From the NCBI GenBank assembly GCA_965237415.1, contig CBDEFM010000002.1:352001-416000 (forward strand): 64,000 bases of DNA, in the 5' to 3' direction. The DNA is from Alphaproteobacteria bacterium (GTDB taxonomy: Bacteria; Pseudomonadota; Alphaproteobacteria; UBA828). Positions 20,526 to 37,860 of the stretch are shown piece by piece. The position numbers were made by a program, and so were the translations under genes. Every line of letters begins with the position of its first letter. The stretch's first letter is position 1. The notes beneath the pieces were generated by a model. That model did no database searches. It saw only the letters and a list, made by a program, of their open reading frames with translations, and was not told the origin of the DNA.

Positions 20526-20695
20526 TGTGCGGACGTCCCCGGTGATGCAAGCAATTTTTTCGGACAGCTTGGAGCATGTAATAAGGTGCTGCTGTCGTGT
20601 GTCCGACCTCATCACTGCTGCATGTCACGCGCTATTAACGGCGGCCCAATATGCGCCAGTCATGGCCCTTTGTCTGTTGTGGCGAGGGGCGGGGG

Positions 20696-21465
20696 ATGTA
20701 CGGCGTGGAGCTCTATGGGGCGGTAGGGCTGGCGGTGGTCGACGAGGGTTTGAACCTCCGCGAGTCGGCGCGGCAGTTCAGCATCGACCGGCGGACGGTG
20801 AAGAAGATGCAGAGCTATTCGGCGCCACCGGGCTATCGCCGGACGGCGCCGGTTAGGCGGCCGAAGCTAAGGGGCTTCACCGGCATTATCGACGCGTTCC
20901 TGGAGGCGGACCGGAATGAGCTGCGCAAGCAGCGGCACACAGCAAAGCGGATCTTCGAGCGGCTGCGGGACGAGCACGGCTTTGCCGGCGGCTACACCAT
21001 ACAGACCGTGTGAAAACGTCATTGAATTCAGATTTTCGAGTAAGTCTGCTTGATTTCTGAAAAGTGCAGCCTGCTAAGTCATTGATTTCATTAACACTGA
21101 AAATTCAACCATTGGGCTGAAATCACATTTCGAGCGATTCTCCGACGTTTTGACACAGTCTGCATAGTGAAGGACTATGTGCGCAGTCCACGCGCGAGGC
21201 CTTCGTGCCGCTCCTTCACTCGCAGGGTCGTGCCCAGGTCGAAGTCGATGAGGCGGTGGTGGAGGTCCGGGGCCGGCGCGAGAAGGTCGCCTTCTTATGC
21301 GTGATCTTGCACCATTCCGATGTCTGCTTCGTGAAGGCCTATCCGAGGGAGACGGCCGAGGCCTTCCTCGACGGCCATGTCAGCGCCTTCGCCTTTCTCG
21401 GTGGGGTTCCGCGATCGGTTTTGTACGACAACACGACCCTCACGGTGACGCGGATCTTGGGTGTT
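20696..21465 (+). pseudogene. istA: IS21-family transposase IstA, truncated and MITE-interrupted
   Basis: ARQFSIDRRTVKK, KQRHTAKRIFERLRDEHGFAGGYTI|VKDYVR, AQV, YPRETAEAFLDGH..GGVPRSVLYDN. Confidence 0.85.
21002..21162. mobile_element. 161-bp AT-rich MITE (IS1182-like ends)
   Basis: TIRs cagaccgtgtgaaaacgtc / gacgttttgacacagtctg (17/19 match); 4-bp TSD cata; removal restores GGYTIVKDYVR. Confidence 0.85.
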
Positions 21466-21872
21466 GTGCGGCGCGGTGTCGTGACCCCTCAAATTGGAAC
21501 AAGTTCAATTAGTTGCCGAGCCGATCGGTGTCAAACGGGTACGCCGAATAACAGATACCCTCAGATGCCTAATTTGAAGGCCACGCACAGGGCAGCCGAT
21601 CCCAGAATGCAGGAATCCGGTAAGAATACGGGGAAATTTCAAGGCTGTTGGTACCGTGTCAGCCGCGCATTGTCAGTGCTGGCAAACGATCGGCGGAGCA
21701 CTGGGAATTGAAGCGGCGCGCGGGTCTGACGAGCGTTGACATCCGGATCGCGCCCCACCGCTAACGCTACAGCAACGGGATAACTACGGCCGATCGCCCG
21801 AGTCTTGCAGGCCCGGCTTCTACATAGGAAAGGCGCAGCACGGACTGTGAAACGGGGCCGGTGTGTGCCGCG

Positions 21873-22157
21873 CTACGATTTGGCGTGCTCGACGATGATC
21901 CGGCCGCGCCCGCGCCGGAGCAGGTAGCCACCGCGCGGGATCGCCAGCGTGCCCTCCTGGACCAGGGGCCAGAGCGTGTCGACGATCGTCTGCGCGTTGG
22001 TGTCGGTCTCTGCCTTGGCTCCCGCCGATTGCCCGGAAAGCCACGCGGCGAACGCCTGCTCGCCGATCTCTTCGCCCACGGACTTGCGCAGTGCATTGAG
22101 CTTGCGGCGCTGTCCCTTCGTCAGGGTGGTCTCATCGATCCGGGATGTGTCTGCCAT
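21873..22157 (-). CDS. Hypothetical 94-aa protein, paralog of 27485-27760
   Basis: RBS ggagagg; 69 identical positions with the second copy by manual alignment. Confidence 0.85.
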   Translation of the reverse strand: MADTSRIDETTLTKGQRRKLNALRKSVGEEIGEQAFAAWLSGQSAGAKAETDTNAQTIVDTLWPLVQEGTLAIPRGGYLLRRGRGRIIVEHAKS

Positions 22158-22562
22158 GGACTTGCCTCTCCAGTGCGTCTTGCGTGGCCGGGTCGTCGGC
22201 TCGGGGCCTTATAGCAGACAGTTTGCAGATTGAGAGCAGCGCCGCGCGCGAAGCGTGCTGCAGAGATGCAATCCGTGAGAATTGAAGCGCTTCGGCGGAG
22301 GGATCCGGCGCAGAGCCGTCGGTCCGGCGATCTTCTGGAGCTTCCTGGAATGGCAGGAGGGGGCGCTTGGCGGCCGCTTCCGGATGTAGAGGACGGCTGA
22401 GTGCAGGCGTGACAATATTCCGGTTGAGCATGAAATATCCCGATTAGGGTATTTAGTTTCTGCTATTTGTGTCGCTGGTCGAGTCCGCCGACCACGCGGC
22501 GGAGGGCGGTTCCGCCACATGAGGCGGGACCATGACGGGAAACGGGCGAGACAAGGTCGGCG

Positions 22563-23291
22563 GTGCCGGCGCCCGGGCGGGCGGGCCGGGCCGCGAGGCA
22601 TGTCGTCGTCGAATCGCCGGCCAAGGCGCGCACGATCGGCAAGTGTCTGGGCGCCGGATACCGGGCGATCGCGACCCGGAGACATGTGCGCGACCGGCCG
22701 GCGAAGGTGGGCTCGGTGAAGCCCGACGACGGCTTCGCGATGATCTACGAGACCGGCAGGGGCGCCGCGCGGACCCTGGGCGCGTTGGCCCTCTGTCCGG
22801 TGCCGGCGGCCGCGGAGGGGATGCCGGATGCCGAGGCGGATTGCGCCCCCGAGGTCGAGCAGGCGCTTGTAGAGGGGGCGCGGATCGGCGTCGAGCGGGA
22901 CGCGGCGGTGGTGCGCCATCCCGACCAGGGCATCCGCGATCCCGATTCGATCCTCGACTTCTCGTGTCTCGACGACCTCTTCGACTTCCGCCGCTTCGAC
23001 ACCCTGTTCGATCCGGGACGCAGCTTGGCAGACCTGCTGGGGCTGGTGCAGCGGCGCATCAGCGCCGCGGCGCCGGAGGCCTACCGCTCCTATATCGGCC
23101 GCCCGCTGGACGATGCCGTCTACACGGCCCGTACTGTCCTCCTCCCCGGGCTCGACCCGGTGGGGACGATCGAGAGAGCGGTGCGCGGGGGGAGCGCGGA
23201 GCAGGTCCGAAGCGTCGTCGGAGATCCGGAACTCGCGGACCGCGACTGGCTTGCCCGTCCCCTTACCGACCGAACGGCTGCCATCGTCTGA
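22563..23291 (+). pseudogene. topA: Chimeric ORF: type IA topoisomerase Toprim remnant fused to an unknown protein fragment
   Basis: VVVESPAKARTIGKCLGAGY..HVRD..SVKPDDGFAMIYE (about 22599-22780); the rest is unrelated to TopA. Confidence 0.7.
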
Positions 23292-23629
23292 GCTGGGGAT
23301 TGAGTAACCGTTCGGCCAGGCCGAGATGGCCAGGATCTGCGGAGTCAGTGAACGGCCGCTGTGGTAGGAAACAGGTCGGTTGGGCGCTTCGGGCCACCCG
23401 CCGGCCGAACGATTCCACGGCTTGGTCGAACGGTTACGGGATTGATATGACAAGGGCACGCAGGCATTTGATTGAATCCTCTTGCGCTTTGATTACAGGG
23501 CTGTGGCATAACAATTTGCGAGATTGGGGAAAAAGAGAAATATGGCGCCAGAACAGCGAGTTATAAGTTGTCTAGGGGCGGACTACTGAGTGTGGTGTCA
23601 GAAATGGTGAGAATTGCGGGTTAGGATCG

Positions 23630-23743
23630 CGCGACGGCGCCACTCCGCCATCGGATATCTGTCAGCCATCGATTACGAACGGAGCCAGCGGCCCCCCCCC
23701 GGTCGCCCAAACCCGTAACTGTCCAAGAAACCCGGGCAACTAC
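23630..23743 (+). mobile_element. IS3-family right end remnant
   Basis: RRHSAIGYLSAIDYE followed by IR-like tgtccaagaaacccgggcaactaca ending in CA. Confidence 0.7.
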
Positions 23744-23791
23744 AGCGCCTCGTCATGCACAGATAGTGGTGAGCCTCGGGGAGGCGCCCAT

Positions 23792-24256
23792 TCAGGTGCT
23801 CTTGCCCGCACCCTCGCGCTTCGCACGGCGCGCGGTGAGCCAGCCGTCGACTGACCAGCGGTCGAGATCGCGCAGCAGGTAGAGCGCGAGGAAGCCTGCC
23901 CAGGCGGCGAGCGCGACGGTCTGGTTGCGGTGGGCCGGAAAGCCCTTCTCGATGACGAATGGAGTGACCAGATCGCCGATGACGACCGCGACGGTGATCG
24001 TGTGGATGAGGAGCCCGGCGGCATAGCTCGCCCGGCGCCACAGGCCAAGGATGATCGCGATCGCGACGACGGTCTGGCCGGCACCCATGTAATAGGGGAG
24101 CGAGGCTGCGAGATCGAAGCCGTGGAAATAGGCGTAGAGCTTGACGTAATGCCCCGGCGCCAGGAACTTCGTCACGCCCCAGACGAGCAGGAACCAACCC
24201 AGGCCGAGACGCAGCACAAGCACGGCAAGCGCCCCACGCGCAGCCGGGGTTTGCAT
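23792..24256 (-). CDS. DoxX-family membrane protein
   Basis: LVLRLGLGWFLLVWGVTKF, ILGLWRR, WSVD; about four TM segments. Confidence 0.75.
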   Translation of the reverse strand: MQTPAARGALAVLVLRLGLGWFLLVWGVTKFLAPGHYVKLYAYFHGFDLAASLPYYMGAGQTVVAIAIILGLWRRASYAAGLLIHTITVAVVIGDLVTPFVIEKGFPAHRNQTVALAAWAGFLALYLLRDLDRWSVDGWLTARRAKREGAGKST

Positions 24257-25042
24257 CCTCGCGACAAAGCTGCGTGCACGCGACACGGCGACCGGCCCCC
24301 ACCGAGTAGTCAAGCTTGAACGTTAGTTCATGTTCAATCTTGTCTCCAGTGGGGGCGTGACCGTGCTGTCGAATGCGTTCCGGCCTGCCGTGGGGAGCGT
24401 CAGGGTCATGCGGCGCCTCGCCGGGGATGATGCATCGCGCTGATCGGCGAGCTGCCTGCGTCGCCGAGGTGGGGCTTGTGGCCCGTGGCGGCAAGAGCGG
24501 CCAGCGTCTCCGGTCGTGCGTCCGGGACCAGGACGACCCGCCAATCGATTCCGACCGGGAAACTCCTACGACGAGCCCTGCGAATTCGCCTTCGCCTATC
24601 ACGGAACACCCAGCCTGCATAAGAGCGGCTACGTTGACCACAAGGACGATATTCCGATCGAGACTGTGCCGGTTGCTGGCACGATGAAACTCGATCACGT
24701 GGTGGACAATAGCCCGCTCCACGAAGAGGGACGCGAAACCTGATTTTTGGGGCGTTGGTTTCGCGTGGCTTGTCGTAATCCGGCACGGTCTACCCGATCC
24801 CCTTCCAAGGCAAGTAGCCGCTCTCCGGTGGCCACGGAGAGCGACGCGGGTTGCGTGACGCACCCTCCCGTGGGATCAGAAGCGGGATGGGCAGGGACTC
24901 CGCGGCCGGCGCCAATGCGGCGCGGGAGGCAGACCGAGGGGCCGCGCGCGACGGATAGGCCGATGCCGCCGGATGCCTGCGCGGGTCACGAGCCCAAATC
25001 ACCGTAGAAGACACCCGACAGAGACGCAGGGAGCACCGATCG

Positions 25043-26002
25043 ATGGAGTACGGTTTCAACGTTCCGGTTTCCGGACCGCTGGCGACCCCCGCCGACATCA
25101 CCACGATCGCCCAGCGGGGCGAGCAGCTGGGCTATCGCCTGCTCGCGATCCCGGATCATATCGTCGTGCCGAAGACGATCGGCTCGCGCTACCCCTATTC
25201 GAAGTCGGGCGAGTTCGAGGTCGACGCCAGGGCCGGCGATCATCTGGAGCCGCTGGCGCTGATGGCGCACCTCGCCGGCATCATCACCGAGGCGCGGCTT
25301 CTCACCTCGGTGATGGTGGTGCCCTATCGCCACCCGGTTCTCACGGCGAAACTGGTTTCGACCATCGACCTGCTCTCGCGCGGGCGGGTCGTGCTCGGCG
25401 TGGGCGCGGGCTGGATGGCGGAAGAGTTCCCGCCGGTCGGCGCGCCGGCCTTCGCGGACAGGGGGCGTGCGACGGACGAGTATCTGCGGATCTACAAGAC
25501 ACTGTGGACCGAAGACGACCCGTCATTCGCGGGCGAGTTCGCTTCGTTCAACGACATCATGTTCGAGCCGAAGCCGGTTCAGAAGCCGCATCCCCCCATC
25601 TGGATCGGTGGCGAGAGCCGGCCGGCGAAGCGGCGCGCGGCCCGCTACGGCGACGCCTGGTACCCGATCGGCTGCAACCCGCGGCATCCGCTCGACACGC
25701 TCGAGCGCTTCTCGGCCTCGCTCGGCGAGCTACGCGCCATGGCGGAGGCCGAGGGCCGCGATCCGGCGTCGATCGATGTCGCCTATTGGGCCGTCTGGTA
25801 CGGAGGCGGCGCGCAGCAGACCGATACCGGCGAGCGCATGCTGCTCTCGGGATCGGCCGACGATATCGCGGGCGATATCGGCGCCCTGGCCGTGCTCGGT
25901 GTGCGCCACGTGGTGCTGCAGTTCCTGCGCCCGACACTCGGCGAATCCCTTGACCTCATGACCCGGTTCGCCGAGGAGGTGATCCCGAAGGTCGACGCAT
26001 AG
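25043..26002 (+). CDS. LLM-class (luciferase-like, F420-dependent type) oxidoreductase
   Basis: PDHIVVP, LEPL, PYRHPVLTAK..DLLSRGRVVLGVGAGW..EEF, PKPVQKPHPPIWIGG. Confidence 0.9.
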   Translation: MEYGFNVPVSGPLATPADITTIAQRGEQLGYRLLAIPDHIVVPKTIGSRYPYSKSGEFEVDARAGDHLEPLALMAHLAGIITEARLLTSVMVVPYRHPVLTAKLVSTIDLLSRGRVVLGVGAGWMAEEFPPVGAPAFADRGRATDEYLRIYKTLWTEDDPSFAGEFASFNDIMFEPKPVQKPHPPIWIGGESRPAKRRAARYGDAWYPIGCNPRHPLDTLERFSASLGELRAMAEAEGRDPASIDVAYWAVWYGGGAQQTDTGERMLLSGSADDIAGDIGALAVLGVRHVVLQFLRPTLGESLDLMTRFAEEVIPKVDA

Positions 26003-26452
26003 CGGTTCCCCGTCGCTCTCGGCAACGAACCGCAGGAGCCCCCGATCGCCCGAGGCCCACGAGTTCACCGCGCATGCGCGGCTCGCCGCCGCCGTCCGCA
26101 AGGCGGTTCGCGGTGCGGTGAGTGTGAACGCCGGAACGGCGGGAGCAAGCGCGCCCGTCTCAAGGCCTCAGCCTCGAACGCCTGGAGCCGGGCGATGGTG
26201 TCGTCGAAATCGGCCCGGCCATGCAGGAAATTCTCGGCCCGCGCGCGCTCCAAAATCCGACACTGTTATCCGTGTCCGCTTGATATCGGTGCCGAAACAG
26301 TGTATGGAGTCGCCAGTTTGCGAGGTCGTCGTCGCTCTCGTGATTGACCGTTTCGGCGGTTGGCCAAGATACTTCCACGACATTGTGAACAAGATCCAGG
26401 AGCGCCCGCACCGAGCGGCGCGACGCCCACACGTCGTGAAAGGACACGATCA

Positions 26453-26662
26453 ATGGCTCAAGGTACCGTGAAATGGTTCAATTCGGTCAAGGGTTACGGT
26501 TTCATCACACCCGAGGACGGTTCACAGGATGCATTCGTGCACATCAGCGCCGTTGAGCGCGCTGGCCTGACCGGCCTCAACGAAGGACAGCGGGTTTCCT
26601 TCGAATTGGTTCCGGGTCGAGATGGAAAGAAATCCGCGGAAAACTTGTCTATCGCCGACTAG
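26453..26662 (+). CDS. cspA: Cold-shock protein
   Basis: GTVKWFN..KGYGFI (RNP1), FVHISA (RNP2). Confidence 0.95.
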   Translation: MAQGTVKWFNSVKGYGFITPEDGSQDAFVHISAVERAGLTGLNEGQRVSFELVPGRDGKKSAENLSIAD

Positions 26663-26675
26663 ATATCAGGGCGAG

Positions 26676-26701
26676 GGGGGCGGTTGGCGACCGCCCTCTT
26701 T
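26676..26701 (+). terminator. Probable terminator after csp
   Basis: gggcggt / accgccc stem followed by tcttt. Confidence 0.6.
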
Positions 26702-26955
26702 CGCACTCGCACGCTTGCCGCGAGCTCTACGGAACAGATCACCCTCGGTTCGGTGGTTCGCAGGCGCCGCAATCCCTGAGGTCGCCCCGCCTATTCGGAC
26801 AATCTGGCGGCTTGATTAACGTGTATTATGGTTGTCGTTCATGCGGCTAGAATCGCTTTGAACCGATCTCCTCGCCACTGATCTTGGATCTCGGGATATG
26901 ACGGACAAGAGGATATGGCGATGTCGGCATCTACTCGAAGCCTGAGCCCGATCGG

Positions 26956-27375
26956 GTGGGGACCGCGCTTGGAGAGTCACGGTTCGACATCGAGGGCCAA
27001 CCAAGTGCTGCCCACTTCCGGGCAAACCGCGGGCGGTTCGCGGTTGTAAACAGTTACTTCCCCAAGGGGAGCGGAAAGGACCGGGACGTTGGACCGGGTG
27101 CAGCAGCTGCGACGCCGGTGCTCGTGACCGGAGATTGCAACACGGCGCACAGCGAGATTGACATCGCTCGCCCGAAATCCAATATCGGGAACAGTGGGTT
27201 CTTCCCCGAGGTGCGGGCCGAGCTGGGCCGTTGGCTTGGGGCCGGCTGGGTGGACACCTTTCGCGCTCCGCATGCGGACGAGCCCGACCATTACACCTGG
27301 TGTCGGCAATAGGGCGACACGCGAGAACGGAATGTCGGGTGGCGGGTCGACTACGTCCCCGCGTCGCCGGCTGGG
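26956..27375 (+). pseudogene. xth: Exodeoxyribonuclease III remnant
   Basis: DIEG, NSYFPKG, GDCNTAH..DIARP, SGF.PE.R, WVDTFR, YTW, stop, NVGWRVDY; lacks the N-terminus and has an internal deletion. Confidence 0.8.
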
Positions 27376-27484
27376 TGACAGCATCGGCGCGGTTCTTCTA
27401 GGCGACAAAGCCGGTAACGGCACCAATCGGGCGAGACTGCAATCACGCCGTCGGCGTACCAACCATCCAACGGAGTAGGTTCAT

Positions 27485-27760
27485 ATGTCCCCAACCCAGA
27501 TCGACGAGAACTCACTCACCAAGGGGCAAAGCCGGAAGCTCGACGCGCTGCGCAAGTCTGTCGGCAACGAGATCGGCGAGCAGGCGTTCGTCGCGTGGCT
27601 TACATCGCAGTCGGCGGCGGTGAAGGCGGACGCGAACGCGGCCCTGATCGTCGACACGCTCTGGCCGCTCGTGCAGCAAGGCACGCTGGCGATCCCGCGG
27701 GGCGGCTATCTGGTCAGACGCGGCCGCGGGCGGATCGTCGTCGAGCCGGCGAAGCGGTAG
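27485..27760 (+). CDS. Hypothetical 91-aa protein, paralog of 21873-22157
   Basis: RBS ggagtagg; intact ORF; ends 4 bp before the rpoD-like start. Confidence 0.85.
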
Positions 27761-27764
27761 GGCC

Positions 27765-29723
27765 ATGAGGGGATCGGACTTGGTGCGGGCGAAGCCGGTC
27801 GAGCGGAGCAGGACAACCGAGGGAGACGAGGAGACGGCCGACGGGCCGGTCCTCGATCTCCCGGCCGCACCGGTTACCGAGATGCTCGCGCGCGGCCGGG
27901 AGCGCGGCTACGTCACCCATGACGAGCTGAATAGAGCCCTGCCGCCCGGCGAGACCAGCGCCGATCGGATCGAGGATGCGAAGACGGTGCTGTCCGAGCT
28001 GGGCATCGCCGTCACCGAGGGCGAGGAAGCGGAGGCCGACGCCGCGGACGGACGTCCTGAAGCGGCTCCGGCCGCCACTGCGTCCAGGATCGGCGAAGAC
28101 GATATCGGGCTCCCCAGCGATCCGGTGGGGATGTACCTGCGGGAGATGGGAAGCACGACGCTTCTCACCCGGGAGGGCGAGGTTGCGCTCGCCAAGCGCA
28201 TCGAAGCGGGGCGGCGGATCATGCTCGACGGTCTCCGCGAGAGCCCGCTGACCATGCGAGCCGTGATCGCATGGCGCGACGCGATCCGTGAGGGCTCGAT
28301 GGCGCTGCGCGAGGCGATCGACATCGATGCCACCCACGGCAGCGGCCCGGCGGCGGCGGACGACGAGAGCGACGGCCCTGGACGTCGGAATGGCCGCGCA
28401 GACTCGCGACCGTCGAAAAGCGCCAACGAAAGCGACGATGAAGCCGACGAGGAGAAGCCGCTGCTCTCGACCATGGAGGCGGCAGTCCTTCCTCGTGTCA
28501 TGGAGACCCTCGAAGCGATTGCGGTGGCCCATGGGAAGCTCCAGCGTCTCCAGGAACAGCGCATCGAGCTGGCCCGCAAGAACCGGACGCTGACGGCGTG
28601 GCAGACCAGACGCTGCCGGGAGTTGAAGCACGATCTCGCGGTGTCGATGCAACGCCTTCAGTTCACCGATGCCCGCATCGAAACGCTCGTGGACGAGCTC
28701 CGCAACCTGAACCGCCGCCTGGGCCGCTGCGAAGGCGCGCTTTTGCGTCTGGCCGCCGATTGCGGCGTCGCGCGGGACGCGTTCCTCACGCACCATGAGG
28801 GCCGCGAGCTGGAGTCGGCCTGGCTGTCGCGGGTCGGCCGGCTGCGCGGCGAAGGATGGGAGACTCTCGCCGCGGAGAAGCGCCTTGAGGTCGTCGCGTT
28901 ACGCGGAGACATCCTGGTCTTGGCCCGAGACACCGGCCTGGAGCCGGCTGAGCTCAAGCGGATCGCCGCCACCGTTCTGAGGGGCCAGCGGGAGGCGAGC
29001 CAGGCCAAGGAGGAGATGGTCGAGGCCAACCTGCGGCTCGTTGTCTCGATCGCCAAGAGGTACCGGAACCGGGGCCTCAAGTTCCTGGACCTGATCCAGG
29101 AGGGCAATGTCGGGCTGATGAAGGGCGTGGACAAGTTCGACTATCGCCGGGGCTTCAAGTTCTCGACCTATGCGACCTGGTGGATCCGCCAGTCGATCAC
29201 CCGCGCGATTGCCGACACGGCGCCGACGATCCGCGTTCCGGTGCACATGGTCGAGACGACCACCAGGCTGAGGCGGCTGTCCTGGCAGATGGGGCAGGAG
29301 CTCGGGCGCGAGCCGACCCAGGAGGAGCTTTCGGAGCGCCTCCACGTGCCGCTCGACAAGGTGCGCCAGACGATGAAGGTTGCGAAGGAGCCGATCAGCC
29401 TGGAGACACCGATCGGCGAGGAGGAGGGCGGCCATCTCGGCGACCTGATCGAGGACGAAGACGCGGTCCAGCCTCTGGACGCTGCGATCCAGTCCGATCT
29501 GCGCGATGCCGTGAGCCGTGCTCTGGAGAGCCTGACACCGCGGGAGGAGCGCATCCTGCGCATGCGCTTCGGTATCGGCACGAAAACCGACCACACGCTC
29601 CAGGAGGTCGGCCAGGTATTCTCGGTCACGCGCGAGCGCATCCGCCAAATCGAGGCCAAGGCTCTTCGGAAGCTGAAGCACCCGTCCCGCGCACGCGAGC
29701 TGCGTACCTTCCTGGAAAAGTAG
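27765..29723 (+). CDS. rpoD: RpoD-like group 1 sigma70 factor (divergent paralog)
   Basis: Region 1.1 [10 protein letters not shown], 1.2 [11 protein letters not shown], full NCR, 2 [30 protein letters not shown], 4.2 [22 protein letters not shown]. Confidence 0.92.
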
Positions 29724-30925: not shown

Positions 30926-31424
30926 TCAAACTGAGACGCGAGCATTTGGATGGGAGCCGGCGTCGATGGCGGCAAGGAACGGCGCGGCGAGTTCCTGCAG
31001 CTTGGCGGCGCCGACACCGTTGATCTCGGCGAGCTCCTCTCTGGTGCGTGGCCGCCGACGTACCATGTCGATCAGGGTGCGATCGTGGAACACGACATAG
31101 GCCGGTACACCGCGCTCTTTGGCCAGTTCCAGCCTTAGCGCCTTGAGCACGGCGAGCAGGCTCGCCTGATCGCCGGTCAAGGTGTCCACAGGTTTCTCTC
31201 GCCGGGTTTCGCCCGGCGCAGGCGAAGGGGGCGCGACCACGGTGTCGGCGCGGTAGTGGAAGGTGCCGTCGCCGCGTAGAAGGTTGAGGCCCTCGTCGGT
31301 GATCGCGAGCCCCCCATAGCCCGCGATGTCGAGCCGCAGGAACTCCGTCGCAACCATCCGGCGGATCAGCGAGCGCCAGTCGTTCTTGCCGCGGCCGGCG
31401 CCAACCCCGAAGACCGGAAGCCGC
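30926..31424 (-). pseudogene. recQ: RecQ C-terminal part (end of RQC plus HRDC)
   Basis: RLPVFGVG..WRSLIRR..YGGLAIT; LKALRLELAKERGVPAYVVFHDRTL..INGVGAAKL. Confidence 0.85.
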
Positions 31425-31819
31425 ATGCTGTGCATCCTCGACGAGTTCAGCCGGGAGGCGCTGGCCATCAAGGTCGGCCGCAGGCTCGCCGCCCTCGGTG
31501 CGCGCACCGTCTACATCGAGAAGGCCAGCCCGTGGGAGAACGGCTATGTCGAGAGCTTTAACGGCAAGTTCAGGGACGAGCTGCTCAACGGCGAGATCTT
31601 CTATACCCTCAGGGAGGCAAGGATCATGATCGAGGCGTGGCGGCGTCACTTACAACACGATCAGGCCGCATTCTACAGGCCGCCCGCTCCCGAGGTCGTG
31701 CCGTGGCCGGCCTCGCCGGCGCTTGAGAGCGCTCGGCCGGCCACACTAACCATGGCCTCGTCGACAACACTCAACTAACATTTCACCTGGACCACTCGGA
31801 GGCCGTGGGGGCCGGTCAG
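31425..31819 (+). mobile_element. IS3-family OrfB fragment with right end
   Basis: MLCILDEFSREALAI, SPWENGYVESFNGKFRDELLN; internal deletion; end ..ggggccggtca. Confidence 0.8.
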
Positions 31820-35107: not shown

Positions 35108-35225
35108 TGATGACCGAAGCGCACGATCTTCTCGGTCTTGCTTCCCCGCAGGATGTCGATCATATGCGCAGCGCCGAAGCGCTCGCCGGAGCGCTGGACC
35201 GTCGAGAGGACCATCCGTGCCTCCT
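35108..35225 (-). pseudogene. recQ: RecQ RQC-domain fragment (upstream half of the split recQ)
   Basis: Manual translation EARMVLSTVQRSGERFGAAHMIDILRGSKTEKIVRFGH (not in the ORF track). Confidence 0.8.
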
Positions 35226-35644
35226 CGACCCCGTGTGCCTCGCGGTGATCGTCGATGAACCCGATCATGGCTTGAACCGGCGGTCGAGCTCCGCCTGGGC
35301 AAAATAGGCGCTCGCCTTGCGCAGGATCTCGTTGACCTGCCGGAGGTCGCGGTTCTCACGCTCCAGGGCTTTCAACCGCTCGGCGACCTCGCTGGGGACG
35401 CCGGCGCGCACGCCGCTGTCGCGCTCGAACCTCTTCACCCACTCATTGAGCGTCTGCGCCGTGCAGCCGATCTTCCCAGCTATCGAGGAAACAGCCGCCT
35501 AACGCGAGGCGTGTTCGCCCTCGTGATCCACAACCATCCGCACCGCACGGGCGCGAACCTCAGAAGAAAACCTGTTCCTTGTCTTGCTCATAATGGCTCC
35601 ACTTTCTCAAGAGTTGGAGCCACCGCCAAACCCGGAGCGGTTCA
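35226..35644 (-). mobile_element. IS3-family left end, OrfA with a nonsense codon, and start of OrfB
   Basis: IRL tgaaccgctccgggtt; [31 protein letters not shown]; Orf[16 protein letters not shown] truncated. Confidence 0.85.
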
Positions 35645-35754: not shown

Positions 35755-37860
35755 CTATTCCAGCGTCACCCGGTAGTTGCCGAGCGCGTCGATGACGGCC
35801 GTCGCGTCCTCGGGCACGAGGACGGTGGTCGTGGCTTCTTCGACGATGGCGGGGCCGGCGATCTGGGCGCCGGGTGAAAGGTCGTTGCCGCGATAGACCG
35901 AGACCGTCTCCGGGGCGTCGCGGCTGGGCAGGTGAACGAGGCGCCTGCCGTGAGGGCGTGCTTCGTGCGCGGCCGCTGCGCCTTCCGCAGGCGCGAGGTC
36001 GGCGGCAGCGGGCCCGATGGCGCGCACCTTCCAGGTGGTGAACTCGACGAGATCGTCCTCGTTCTTGATCGTGTAGATGCGCTCGTGCATCCGGTGGAAG
36101 CCGTCGGCGAGGCCCGGCACATCGGCGGCGGCAAGCGCGCCGTCACGCGCGCTATTCTCCCGCGCGCCGTCACGCGCGACGAACGGCACCTCGATCTCCC
36201 ACGACTGGTACTGGTAGCGGCCGAGATAGGCGTACTCGAAGCGCTGGTCGGGCTCGGCGATGCCCGCGCGCGCAAGGAAGGCGCGGCCCCGCTCCTCCAG
36301 TTCGGCGAGCACCCCGTTGACACCTTCGAGATCGAAGCGGGCGGCGTCGGTGACGAGCGTCGCCGTCTCCTCCCACACGATATCGGAGATGAGGCCGCCG
36401 AAGGCGCTGAGGCCCGCTGAGAACTTGGGCACCATGTAGCCCTTGATGTCGAGCACCCGCGCCATCTGCCCCATGTGCATGGCGGTGGCGCCGCCGCCGG
36501 CGACGAAGTAGCTCTCGCGCGGGTCGATCCCCTCCTGCACGGTGATGTCCTCGATGGCGGCGATCATGGTGTGATCCACCGTGCTCGCGATGACGCGGGC
36601 CGCGACAGCAAGCTCAATGCCGAGCGCATCCGCGATGGTGCCGACGGCCTTCTCCGCCGCGCCCTTGTCGAGGTGCATCCTGCCGCCGAGGAAGTAGTCG
36701 GGGTCGATGATGCCGAGCACCACATCGGCATCGGTGACGGTCGGCCGCATACCGCCGAGGCCGTAGCAGGCGGGGCCGGGGTCCGCGCCGGCGCTCTCCG
36801 GCCCCACGCGGAGCAGTCCGCCGGCGTCCACATGGGCGATGGAGCCGCCGCCGGCTCCCACTGAGCGCACGTCCACCTTGGGGATGCCCAACATGTCGAA
36901 CTCGGTCAGCATCGCCTCAGGCGAGATGACGAGCTGGCCGTCGCGCACGGCGGAGACGTCGAACGAGGTGCCGCCCATGTCGACCACCACAAGATCGGGC
37001 GCATCCGTGAGCCTTCTGGCGGCGACCGGCGCCAGCGTCGGCCCCGACATCACGCTGTAGATCGGCCGCTCGGCGATTTCGTCCGGCGGCATCATGCCGC
37101 CCAGGCAGTTCGCGATCATCAGCTCGTTGCCGTAGCCGCTCTCCCGCAGGCTCCGGTCGAGCGCGTGGACATAGGCGCTCACCACCGGCCTGAGCGCAGC
37201 GTCGATGACGGCAGAGACCGTACGGCGATATTCGCGGGCAATCGGGTTGAGCCGGTGGCTGAGCGTCACCGGAACTTCGGGCCAGGCGCCCTTGACGATC
37301 TCGCCCACGCGCCGCTCGTGGCTGCCGTTCACCACCGACCACAGCAGGCAGACCGCGACCGCCTCCACGCCCAGCTTCCGAAAATCCTCGACCGCTGCGA
37401 GAACGTCCTCCTCCTCCAGCGGCGTGTGCTCCGCGCCGGTGGCGTCGATCCGCCCGCGCACGCCACGCGTCCTGATCCGGGGCACGAAGGGCGCGGGATA
37501 GGTGAGGCGCCACTGAAACGGCGGCTTTCGGGGCGCTTCGCGCAGCGTGAGTATGTCGCGGAAGCCGTGGGTGCAGATCAGCCCGACGGTCGCGTGCTTG
37601 CCCTCCAGCAGCGCGTTGGTCGACACCGTCGTGCCGTGGACGACGCGCTCTACCCGAGCCATGAAGTCCGGGAGCGCTCGCCCGTAGCCATCGGCCGCCA
37701 GCTTCAGCGCATTCATGAAGCCAAGCTCGAACGCGGCGGGCGTGGACGGCGTCTTGAAAATGCTTAAGTGCTGGCCAGCGTCCGAGACGACGCAGTCGGT
37801 AAAGGTGCCGCCGATATCGATGCAGACCCGGTAATCCCCGGGCGGGGAAGCAGCGGCCAT
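35755..37860 (-). CDS. Hydantoinase/oxoprolinase subunit A family (ATP-dependent)
   Basis: IDIGGTFTD, HGTTVSTNA, EYRRT, SGP, DMGGTSFD, VGAGGGS, PESAGADPGPACY. Confidence 0.93.
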   Translation of the reverse strand: MAAASPPGDYRVCIDIGGTFTDCVVSDAGQHLSIFKTPSTPAAFELGFMNALKLAADGYGRALPDFMARVERVVHGTTVSTNALLEGKHATVGLICTHGFRDILTLREAPRKPPFQWRLTYPAPFVPRIRTRGVRGRIDATGAEHTPLEEEDVLAAVEDFRKLGVEAVAVCLLWSVVNGSHERRVGEIVKGAWPEVPVTLSHRLNPIAREYRRTVSAVIDAALRPVVSAYVHALDRSLRESGYGNELMIANCLGGMMPPDEIAERPIYSVMSGPTLAPVAARRLTDAPDLVVVDMGGTSFDVSAVRDGQLVISPEAMLTEFDMLGIPKVDVRSVGAGGGSIAHVDAGGLLRVGPESAGADPGPACYGLGGMRPTVTDADVVLGIIDPDYFLGGRMHLDKGAAEKAVGTIADALGIELAVAARVIASTVDHTMIAAIEDITVQEGIDPRESYFVAGGGATAMHMGQMARVLDIKGYMVPKFSAGLSAFGGLISDIVWEETATLVTDAARFDLEGVNGVLAELEERGRAFLARAGIAEPDQRFEYAYLGRYQYQSWEIEVPFVARDGARENSARDGALAAADVPGLADGFHRMHERIYTIKNEDDLVEFTTWKVRAIGPAAADLAPAEGAAAAHEARPHGRRLVHLPSRDAPETVSVYRGNDLSPGAQIAGPAIVEEATTTVLVPEDATAVIDALGNYRVTLE

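What the first reader, a model, noticed from the sequence alone, without database searches (positions are those of the whole stretch)
21873..27760. Two intact paralogs of an unknown ~92-aa protein with an RGRGR motif: candidate new nucleoid-associated or silencer family
Seen: two ORFs with good RBSs and 69 identical residues. Both are intact although neighbouring topA, xth, recQ and IS genes are broken. The layout is a conserved basic helical N-block (LTKGQxRKLxALRKSVGxEIGEQAFxAWL), a variable Ala/Lys linker that absorbs the internal indel, and a conserved C-block ([30 protein letters not shown]). One copy is divergent from a topA remnant and the other abuts an rpoD paralog. Known: H-NS and Lsr2 have an oligomerisation domain, a linker and a C-terminal Q/RGR AT-hook-like motif, and mobile elements carry such proteins. 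Inference: an analogous DNA-binding protein, or a partner of the sigma factor. I do not recognise the family.
Basis: partly seen in the sequence, partly recalled or inferred. Interest (0 to 1): 0.7.

Follow-up and report, generated by a model that had tools for sequence, protein, structure and literature searches.

The report
New multicopy basic DNA-binding protein family
The two genes are real, conserved members of an unnamed family of small basic proteins that has 12 copies in this genome and multiplies alongside HU/IHF genes on mobile DNA in uncultured marine Alphaproteobacteria; it is likely a new kind of chromosome-coating DNA-binding protein, not an H-NS or Lsr2 homologue.

Summary
Observation confirmed. 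Both ORFs are intact (94 and 91 aa, 70 identical residues) and under purifying selection (dN/dS 0.29). They are not a local pair. The genome holds 12 copies and all 20 congeneric genomes hold 1-19. The family spans 476 clusters at 50% identity, with no Pfam, NCBIfam, PHROG or PDB match. AlphaFold predicts a basic helical hairpin, a variable linker, then a helix plus beta-hairpin tipped by RGRGR (RAKGKG in a second subtype). Copy number tracks HU/IHF copy number (rho 0.90, 40 genomes). An IHF-like gene lies 83-104 bp upstream in 21 of 129 copies, including on TrwC-relaxase elements. An extended -10-like motif precedes 47 of 125 copies (controls 1-2). Best reading (0.55): a new nucleoid-associated protein with resident and mobile copies. 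It fails the H-NS/Lsr2 sequence and charge tests, so silencing is only an analogy (0.18). The rpoD link is lineage-limited (9 of 122), so a sigma partner is unlikely (0.07). DNA binding and oligomerisation are untested. No earlier finding of this scan that I retrieved described the family; one note on another gene (e1-707641) shares a look-alike stretch.

The parts
21873..22157 (-). Family gene, copy A (94 aa, pI 9.7)
22165..22171 (-). Shine-Dalgarno-like site of copy A
22208..22216 (-). Extended -10-like promoter motif of copy A, 50 nt before the ATG; the motif recurs across the family (promoter function inferred)
21680..22361 (.). 682-bp segment holding copy A, duplicated at G000:C2:3369544-3370224 (98.5% identical)
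27485..27760 (+). Family gene, copy B (91 aa, pI 10.3)
27438..27446 (+). Degenerate version of the extended -10 motif before copy B (5 of 9 consensus positions; close relatives have 6-7)
27472..27475 (+). Shine-Dalgarno-like site of copy B
22599..22784 (+). Context: topA N-terminal (Toprim) remnant, divergent from copy A
26453..26662 (+). Context: cold-shock gene, upstream of copy B across the B clade
26956..27312 (+). Context: exonuclease III (xth) fragment
27765..29723 (+). Context: intact accessory RpoD paralogue directly after copy B
30926..31507 (-). Context: recQ C-terminal remnant (RQC, HRDC) beside a transposase fragment
20651..21711 (+). Context: transposase fragments downstream of copy A

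Best explanation
The two ORFs encode members of an unnamed family of small basic two-domain proteins that likely act as nucleoid-associated DNA-binding proteins, kept as a resident gene and carried as extra copies beside IHF-like genes on mobile elements. Shown: the genes, their selection, copy numbers, neighbours and charge. Predicted: a helical hairpin (residues 14-46), a 4-13 residue linker, and a helix plus beta-hairpin with R82-G-R84-G-R86 at the tip. Inferred mechanism, in four steps. (1) The Gly/Arg hairpin tip would enter the DNA minor groove with little sequence specificity. (2) The conserved K14, R18, K19, R24 and K25 would grip the phosphate backbone. (3) The conserved hydrophobic face (L12, L20, L23, F36, W39) would let subunits associate and coat or bend DNA. 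(4) Mobilisable elements would bring their own dose, expressed from the gene's own extended -10 promoter, to package incoming DNA together with their IHF-like protein, so copies pile up in genomes that have gathered many such elements.
For: Basic: pI above 9 in 73 of 83 members, beta-region net charge +6. Basic and Gly positions are at least 90% conserved over 83 diverse members: K14, R18, K19, G77, R82. 26 of 83 members carry an N-terminal tail with 3 or more K/R, and 3 of 83 an AT-hook-like GRP/RPKG (the histone-H1/AT-hook likeness is recalled). Copy number follows HU/IHF: rho 0.90 in 40 family-positive genomes, 0.87 in the 21 of the genus, 0.74 in 19 of other genera, 0.82 after removing genome size. 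An IHF-like gene is co-oriented 83-104 bp upstream in 21 of 129 de-duplicated copies, and an HU/IHF gene is within 3 kb in 34 of 138. L097 and L098 place SSB, the IHF-like gene and this gene on TrwC-relaxase elements. Low-copy genomes and several metagenome contigs carry it alone among metabolic genes. An extended -10-like motif is in 47 of 125 copies versus 1, 2 and 2 of 125 in control windows. The same expansion of HU/IHF with relaxases is reported for known NAPs (PMC10561277, passages read).
Against: No DNA-binding assay exists, and no sequence match links it to a known DNA-binding family. Co-variation with HU/IHF could reflect mobile-element load alone; kin are not independent, and match counts include fragments. 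The IHF link is confined to one large clade, and the commonest state is no conserved neighbour. It is patchy: 18 of 401 genomes of the class and 1 of 401 of the phylum sample, so it is dispensable, unlike core NAPs. There is no match in 72,556 plasmids or 50,697 phages. RGG/RGR tracts also bind RNA (recalled).
Confidence: 0.55

Rival explanations
1. It would be a true xenogeneic silencer that works like Lsr2/H-NS: the RGR tip reads AT-rich minor grooves, the N-domain polymerises, and mobile copies are stealth silencers like Sfh or Pmr.
For: RGR is in 68 of 83 members, and x-G-R-G-R matches 4 of 5 positions of the Lsr2 SGRGR motif (PMC8476142, passages). The layout is two domains and a flexible linker. 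No H-NS match in 0 of 56 genomes searched. PMC8476142 states that most Alphaproteobacteria have no known silencer. Resident plus mobile copies is the H-NS/Sfh pattern (PMC6936261, PMC7074111; passages).
Against: The N-domain is net +2 and the linker neutral, where H-NS/MvaT/Lsr2 have an acidic N-domain and a basic linker (against PMC6936261). A whole subtype lacks RGR. MucR is present in all 40 family-positive genomes. DNA around the 12 copies is 60-69% GC against a genome median of 67%, so these are mostly not AT-rich islands.
Confidence: 0.18
2. It would be an RNA-binding or ribosome-associated small protein that uses its RGG/RGRGR tract on RNA.
For: PRGGY and RRGRGR tracts. Cold-shock genes lie upstream in 5 of 110 copies, and a CsrA gene sits beside one copy. 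RGG motifs as RNA binders is recalled knowledge.
Against: The commonest neighbours are DNA-binding or DNA-metabolism genes (IHF/HU, SSB, integrases). AT-hook-like and Lys/Ala-rich tails in distant members point to DNA.
Confidence: 0.12
3. It would be a partner of the adjacent sigma factor or of RNA polymerase.
For: rpoD follows within 10-130 bp in 9 of 122 copies and an RsbW-like (HATPase_c_2) gene within 65-105 bp in 10 of 122. 2 of 12 copies in this genome abut rpoD paralogues.
Against: Both links are confined to a few related clades; 113 of 122 copies have no rpoD behind them. The genome has 12 copies but 3 rpoD-like loci.
Confidence: 0.07
4. It would be an element-specific accessory factor (recombination directionality factor, relaxosome helper or sequence-specific regulator) rather than a general chromatin protein.
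For: 7 of 12 copies lie within 2 kb of a transposase or integrase, against 13.6% of random positions (the queries came from loci near copies, so this is inflated). It sits on TrwC elements beside IHF.
Against: Single stand-alone copies occur among metabolic genes far from any detected mobile gene (L006, 104 kb away; L058, L060 and others). There is no fixed linkage to one integrase or relaxase type.
Confidence: 0.08

Closest known systems
Lsr2 (PF11774) and H-NS/StpA/Bv3F (PF00816), with mobile homologues Sfh and Pmr
   Same: Small; two domains joined by a variable linker; a C-terminal G-R-G-R; resident plus mobile copies (PMC6936261, PMC7074111, PMC8476142; passages read).
   Different: No Pfam or profile similarity. 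The motif is predicted at a beta-hairpin tip, not in a loop between helices as in Lsr2. The N-domain is basic and the linker neutral. It is about 92 aa, against 137 for E. coli H-NS. A second subtype lacks RGR.
HU/IHF (PF00216)
   Same: About 90 aa and basic; expands on mobile elements, with closely matching copy numbers; frequent direct neighbour; a helix followed by a Gly-containing turn and beta-strands.
   Different: No PF00216 hit. Profile-profile probability is 0.5%, E 0.12 over 34 columns. It lacks the GRNP beta-arm seen in the IHF/HU alignment.
MucR/Ros (PF05443) and GapR (PF10073), the alphaproteobacterial chromatin proteins
   Same: Small basic proteins of the same class of bacteria, proposed as H-NS analogues (PMC8476142).
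   Different: No sequence match and no zinc-finger residues. MucR coexists in all 40 positive genomes. GapR is found in 9 of 18 family-positive versus 291 of 383 family-negative genomes, but family-negative close relatives lack it too.

Membership tests
H-NS family | Sequence match to Histone_HNS (PF00816) or to H-NS itself | tested here: not met
   No hit for either copy at E<=0.1; not among the 25 of 40 families shown for 83 members; hhalign with E. coli H-NS 0.2%
H-NS family | Q/RGR inside the TGQGR-type motif (PMC8476142; the wider TWxGxGRxP pattern is recalled) | tested here: not met
   RGR in 68 of 83, but TW[TS]GxGRxP and [QR]GRxP in 0 of 83
H-NS/MvaT/Lsr2 bridgers | Acidic N-domain, basic linker, basic DNA-binding domain (PMC6936261) | tested here: not met
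   Median net charge: N-domain +2, linker 0, C-helix -1, beta region +6
H-NS/MvaT/Lsr2 bridgers | Two domains joined by a flexible linker | tested here: met
   pLDDT dips to 61 at residues 41-50, pTM 0.43; linker 4-13 residues
H-NS/MvaT/Lsr2 bridgers | N-terminal dimerisation and oligomerisation | not testable with these tools
   Needs SEC-MALS or cross-linking
H-NS/MvaT/Lsr2 bridgers | AT-rich DNA preference, bridging, hns complementation | not testable with these tools
   Bench work needed
H-NS/MvaT/Lsr2 bridgers | Fold of the C-terminal domain matches a solved silencer domain | tested here: inconclusive
   47-residue model searched; small domains are often missed
Lsr2 | C-domain of two helices with RGR in the loop between them (PMC8476142) | tested here: not met
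   Predicted one helix plus a beta-hairpin with RGR at the turn, pLDDT 90.7; no Lsr2 Pfam hit
HU/IHF | PF00216 match and GRNP beta-arm | tested here: not met
HU/IHF | Remote homology of the helix-beta core | tested here: inconclusive
   hhalign 0.5%, E 0.12, 34 columns
MucR/Ros; GapR | PF05443 or PF10073 match | tested here: not met
   No Pfam hit for either copy
Nucleoid-associated proteins (functional class) | Small and basic | tested here: met
   About 85-125 aa; pI above 9 in 73 of 83
Nucleoid-associated proteins (functional class) | Abundant expression | tested here: inconclusive
   RNA-library contigs cover the genes but cannot give level or strand
Nucleoid-associated proteins (functional class) | Sequence-tolerant DNA binding and nucleoid localisation | not testable with these tools
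   Bench work needed

The most novel reading that the evidence does not exclude
A new class of bacterial xenogeneic silencer or chromatin protein with its own fold, which evolved the RGR minor-groove probe independently on a beta-hairpin. It serves H-NS-less, often GapR-less marine and sponge-associated Alphaproteobacteria, and mobilisable elements amplify it up to 19-fold as a stealth factor together with IHF.
Probability: 0.2. Interest if true: 0.8.

Novelty: new variant of a known kind. Interest (0 to 1): 0.52.

Why it matters
PMC8476142 (passages read) leaves open whether most Alphaproteobacteria have silencers unrelated to the known ones. This family gives a concrete, cheap candidate: about 92 aa, with a testable motif, two natural subtypes (RGRGR and RAKGKG) and no known relative. 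Even as a plain nucleoid protein, it would add a new DNA-binding domain. It would also be a marker for the mobilisable elements that fill these genomes, because its copy number follows HU/IHF so closely.

Full report
OBSERVATION. Copy A (21873-22157, minus, 94 aa) and copy B (27485-27760, plus, 91 aa) translate as described. They share 70 identical residues in 94 columns, and the DNA match stops at the ORF ends. Nei-Gojobori gives dN 0.188 and dS 0.655, ratio 0.29, and 0.19 over the conserved blocks. The whole-gene median is 0.22 for the 597 of 703 pairs (38 genes) with dS 0.1-1.5. Six loci were left out of that set as duplicates, truncated or without a clear start: L002, L003, L033, L039, L040, L041. 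The broken topA, xth, recQ and transposase neighbours and the intact RpoD are confirmed.

THE FAMILY. The genome G000 (4.75 Mb, 67% GC) holds 12 matches: 11 full or nearly full and one C-terminal half. A and B are not sisters. B lies in a starred clade whose members sit between a cold-shock gene and an rpoD paralogue; A has a recent duplicate elsewhere in the genome. The word-index search found 2012 relatives among 2016 candidates. None of the 120 listed has a Pfam domain, and the two names given are 'hypothetical protein'. The full HMM scan found 476 clusters at 50% identity. A second subtype has a longer RA[KR]GKG hairpin.

DISTRIBUTION. All 20 congeneric genomes have 1-19 matches; 24 of 41 relatives overall. 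It is in 18 of 401 genomes of the class (15 of 308 genera) and only in G000 among 401 of the phylum sample. The class tallies include G069, flagged unpublished; no single claim rests on it. Of 32 GTDB loci, 30 are from records titled Alphaproteobacteria or Rhodospirillales MAG, one Gemmatimonas and one Bryobacterales. There is no match in the plasmid or phage collections, and 2 IMG/VR contigs. A run labelled sponge metagenome holds a contig across cspA to copy B at roughly 94% identity.

ANATOMY. AlphaFold2 with 83 sequences gives mean pLDDT 86 and pTM 0.43: helices 14-27 and 29-46, a low-confidence linker, helix 53-67, and strands 78-83 and 86-91. The C-domain alone gives pLDDT 90.7 with the same elements. 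RGRGR therefore sits at a predicted beta-hairpin turn. Nearly invariant positions are L12, K14, R18, K19, L20, L23, S26, G28, F36, W39, D52, G77 and R82. Median pI is 10.3. Net charge is +2 in the N-domain, 0 in the linker, -1 in the C-helix and +6 in the beta region. RGR is in 68 of 83 members; 26 of 83 have basic N-terminal tails and 3 of 83 an AT-hook-like motif. A TGnTAYR motif lies 20-80 nt upstream in 47 of 125 copies against 1, 2 and 2 in control windows. The pattern was chosen, and no -35 is conserved. Copy A has a good version and copy B a degenerate one.

CONTEXT. 185 full hits were reduced to 138 at under 97% identity. An IHF-like gene is co-oriented 83-104 bp upstream in 21 of 129, rpoD downstream in 9 of 122, an RsbW-like gene downstream in 10 of 122, SSB in 7 of 110, cold-shock in 5 of 110 and topA in 2 of 110. 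Each link follows a clade, and many deep-branching copies have none of these neighbours. L097 and L098 show the gene as cargo of TrwC-relaxase elements with SSB and an IHF-like gene; L097 also has a coupling protein. In G000, 7 of 12 copies are within 2 kb of a transposase or integrase against 13.6% of random positions. This is inflated because the queries came from these loci, and 4 of 12 are over 13 kb away. One copy (L006) keeps its peptidase and P450 neighbours in 5 of the first 74 loci analysed and looks resident. The counts come from two profiles, include fragments, and kin are not independent. H-NS was found in 0 of 56 genomes, MucR in all 40 positive ones, and GapR in 9 of 18 positive against 291 of 383 negative.

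EXPRESSION. Contigs from RNA libraries cover both window copies and the resident copy in related strains. One begins about 8 nt after the expected start of the resident copy, where a contig from a run of unrecorded kind continues. Contigs give neither strand nor level, so this is a weak hint.

MECHANISM. I commit to a nucleoid-associated DNA-binding protein (0.55). Shown: genes, selection, charge, copy pattern and neighbours. Predicted: the fold. Inferred: minor-groove insertion of the Gly/Arg hairpin, backbone contact by the basic N-helix, self-association through the conserved hydrophobic face, and a role in packaging newly arrived element DNA alongside IHF. The rivals are a true Lsr2-like silencer (0.18), an RNA binder (0.12), an element-specific accessory factor (0.08) and a sigma partner (0.07).

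COMPARISON. It may work like H-NS/Lsr2 but is not a member. There is no Pfam or profile similarity, no H-NS motif context, and the charge pattern differs from that described in PMC6936261 (passages read). The motif also sits in a different predicted setting from the inter-helix loop of Lsr2 (PMC8476142, passages read). It is not HU/IHF, MucR or GapR. Mobile NAP copies as such are known: PMC7074111 (passages) and PMC10561277 (passages), the latter reporting HU/IHF counts co-varying with relaxases. Other papers were seen only as listings with the start of the abstract; no supplements were read.

NOVELTY AND VERDICT. The family is real, sizeable and unnamed, and I found no description of it in six searches of the held library. 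Earlier scan notes gave one look-alike stretch inside a finding about a different gene on an integrase-IHF islet (e1-707641; not checked here). Searches showed none on this family among the notes displayed. Its likely job belongs to a known kind, so I file it as a new variant of a known kind, interest 0.52. If it proves to be an independent RGR silencer of Alphaproteobacteria (probability 0.2), interest would be 0.8.

Noticed in passing
window 27765-29723; G000:C2:1911776-1913776 and 3088057-3089410: Three rpoD-like loci in one genome: an intact accessory RpoD in this island, a full-length one elsewhere (probably the primary), and an apparently broken one that also follows a family gene.
   Followed up: partly
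G000 whole genome; genus g1: No GapR match in G000, and only 2 partial matches in 20 congeneric genomes, although 300 of 401 genomes of the class have it.
   Followed up: partly
G000 and relatives: HU/IHF matches are expanded to 12 in G000 and up to 25 in a relative; G000 has 9 TrwC relaxase matches.
   Followed up: partly
L097:2135-19447; L098:1202-11772: TrwC mobilisable element with coupling protein, AlpA, PIN/Phd pair, SSB, IHF-like gene, this family and two unannotated conserved ORFs (105 and 271 aa) that recur in 5 loci each.
   Followed up: partly
L043-L056 (G035, G027, G028), L057, L076-L078, L082: Second subtype with a longer RA[KR]GKG hairpin, 10-12 matches per genome in G035, G184 and G220 (most of this subtype by score), often beside umuDC, an ATP synthase zeta gene or bactofilin.
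   Followed up: partly
L001 and L002 (G000:C2 about 18-25 kb and 1133-1139 kb): A chromosomal block of several kb, including an identical family copy, occurs twice, each time next to phage head or tail genes; it may be a real duplication or an assembly repeat.
   Followed up: no
L006:6014-7637: RNA-library contigs from three studies cover the resident copy and run 0.4-1.3 kb into the gene-poor stretch behind it. One starts about 8 nt after the expected start site. No Rfam match.
   Followed up: partly
window 26335-27809: Single RNA-library contigs span cspA, the xth fragment and copy B, whose own -10 motif is degenerate; read-through from cspA is possible but not shown.
   Followed up: no
P0175, P0224, P0281: Proteins with two or three tandem family units in one chain.
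   Followed up: no
window 36219-36316: The ARAGORN tRNA-Gly call lies inside a hydantoinase ORF and has no Rfam support, so it is probably spurious.
   Followed up: no
window 35187-35310: ALIL pseudoknot (RF01497) in an IS fragment.
   Followed up: no
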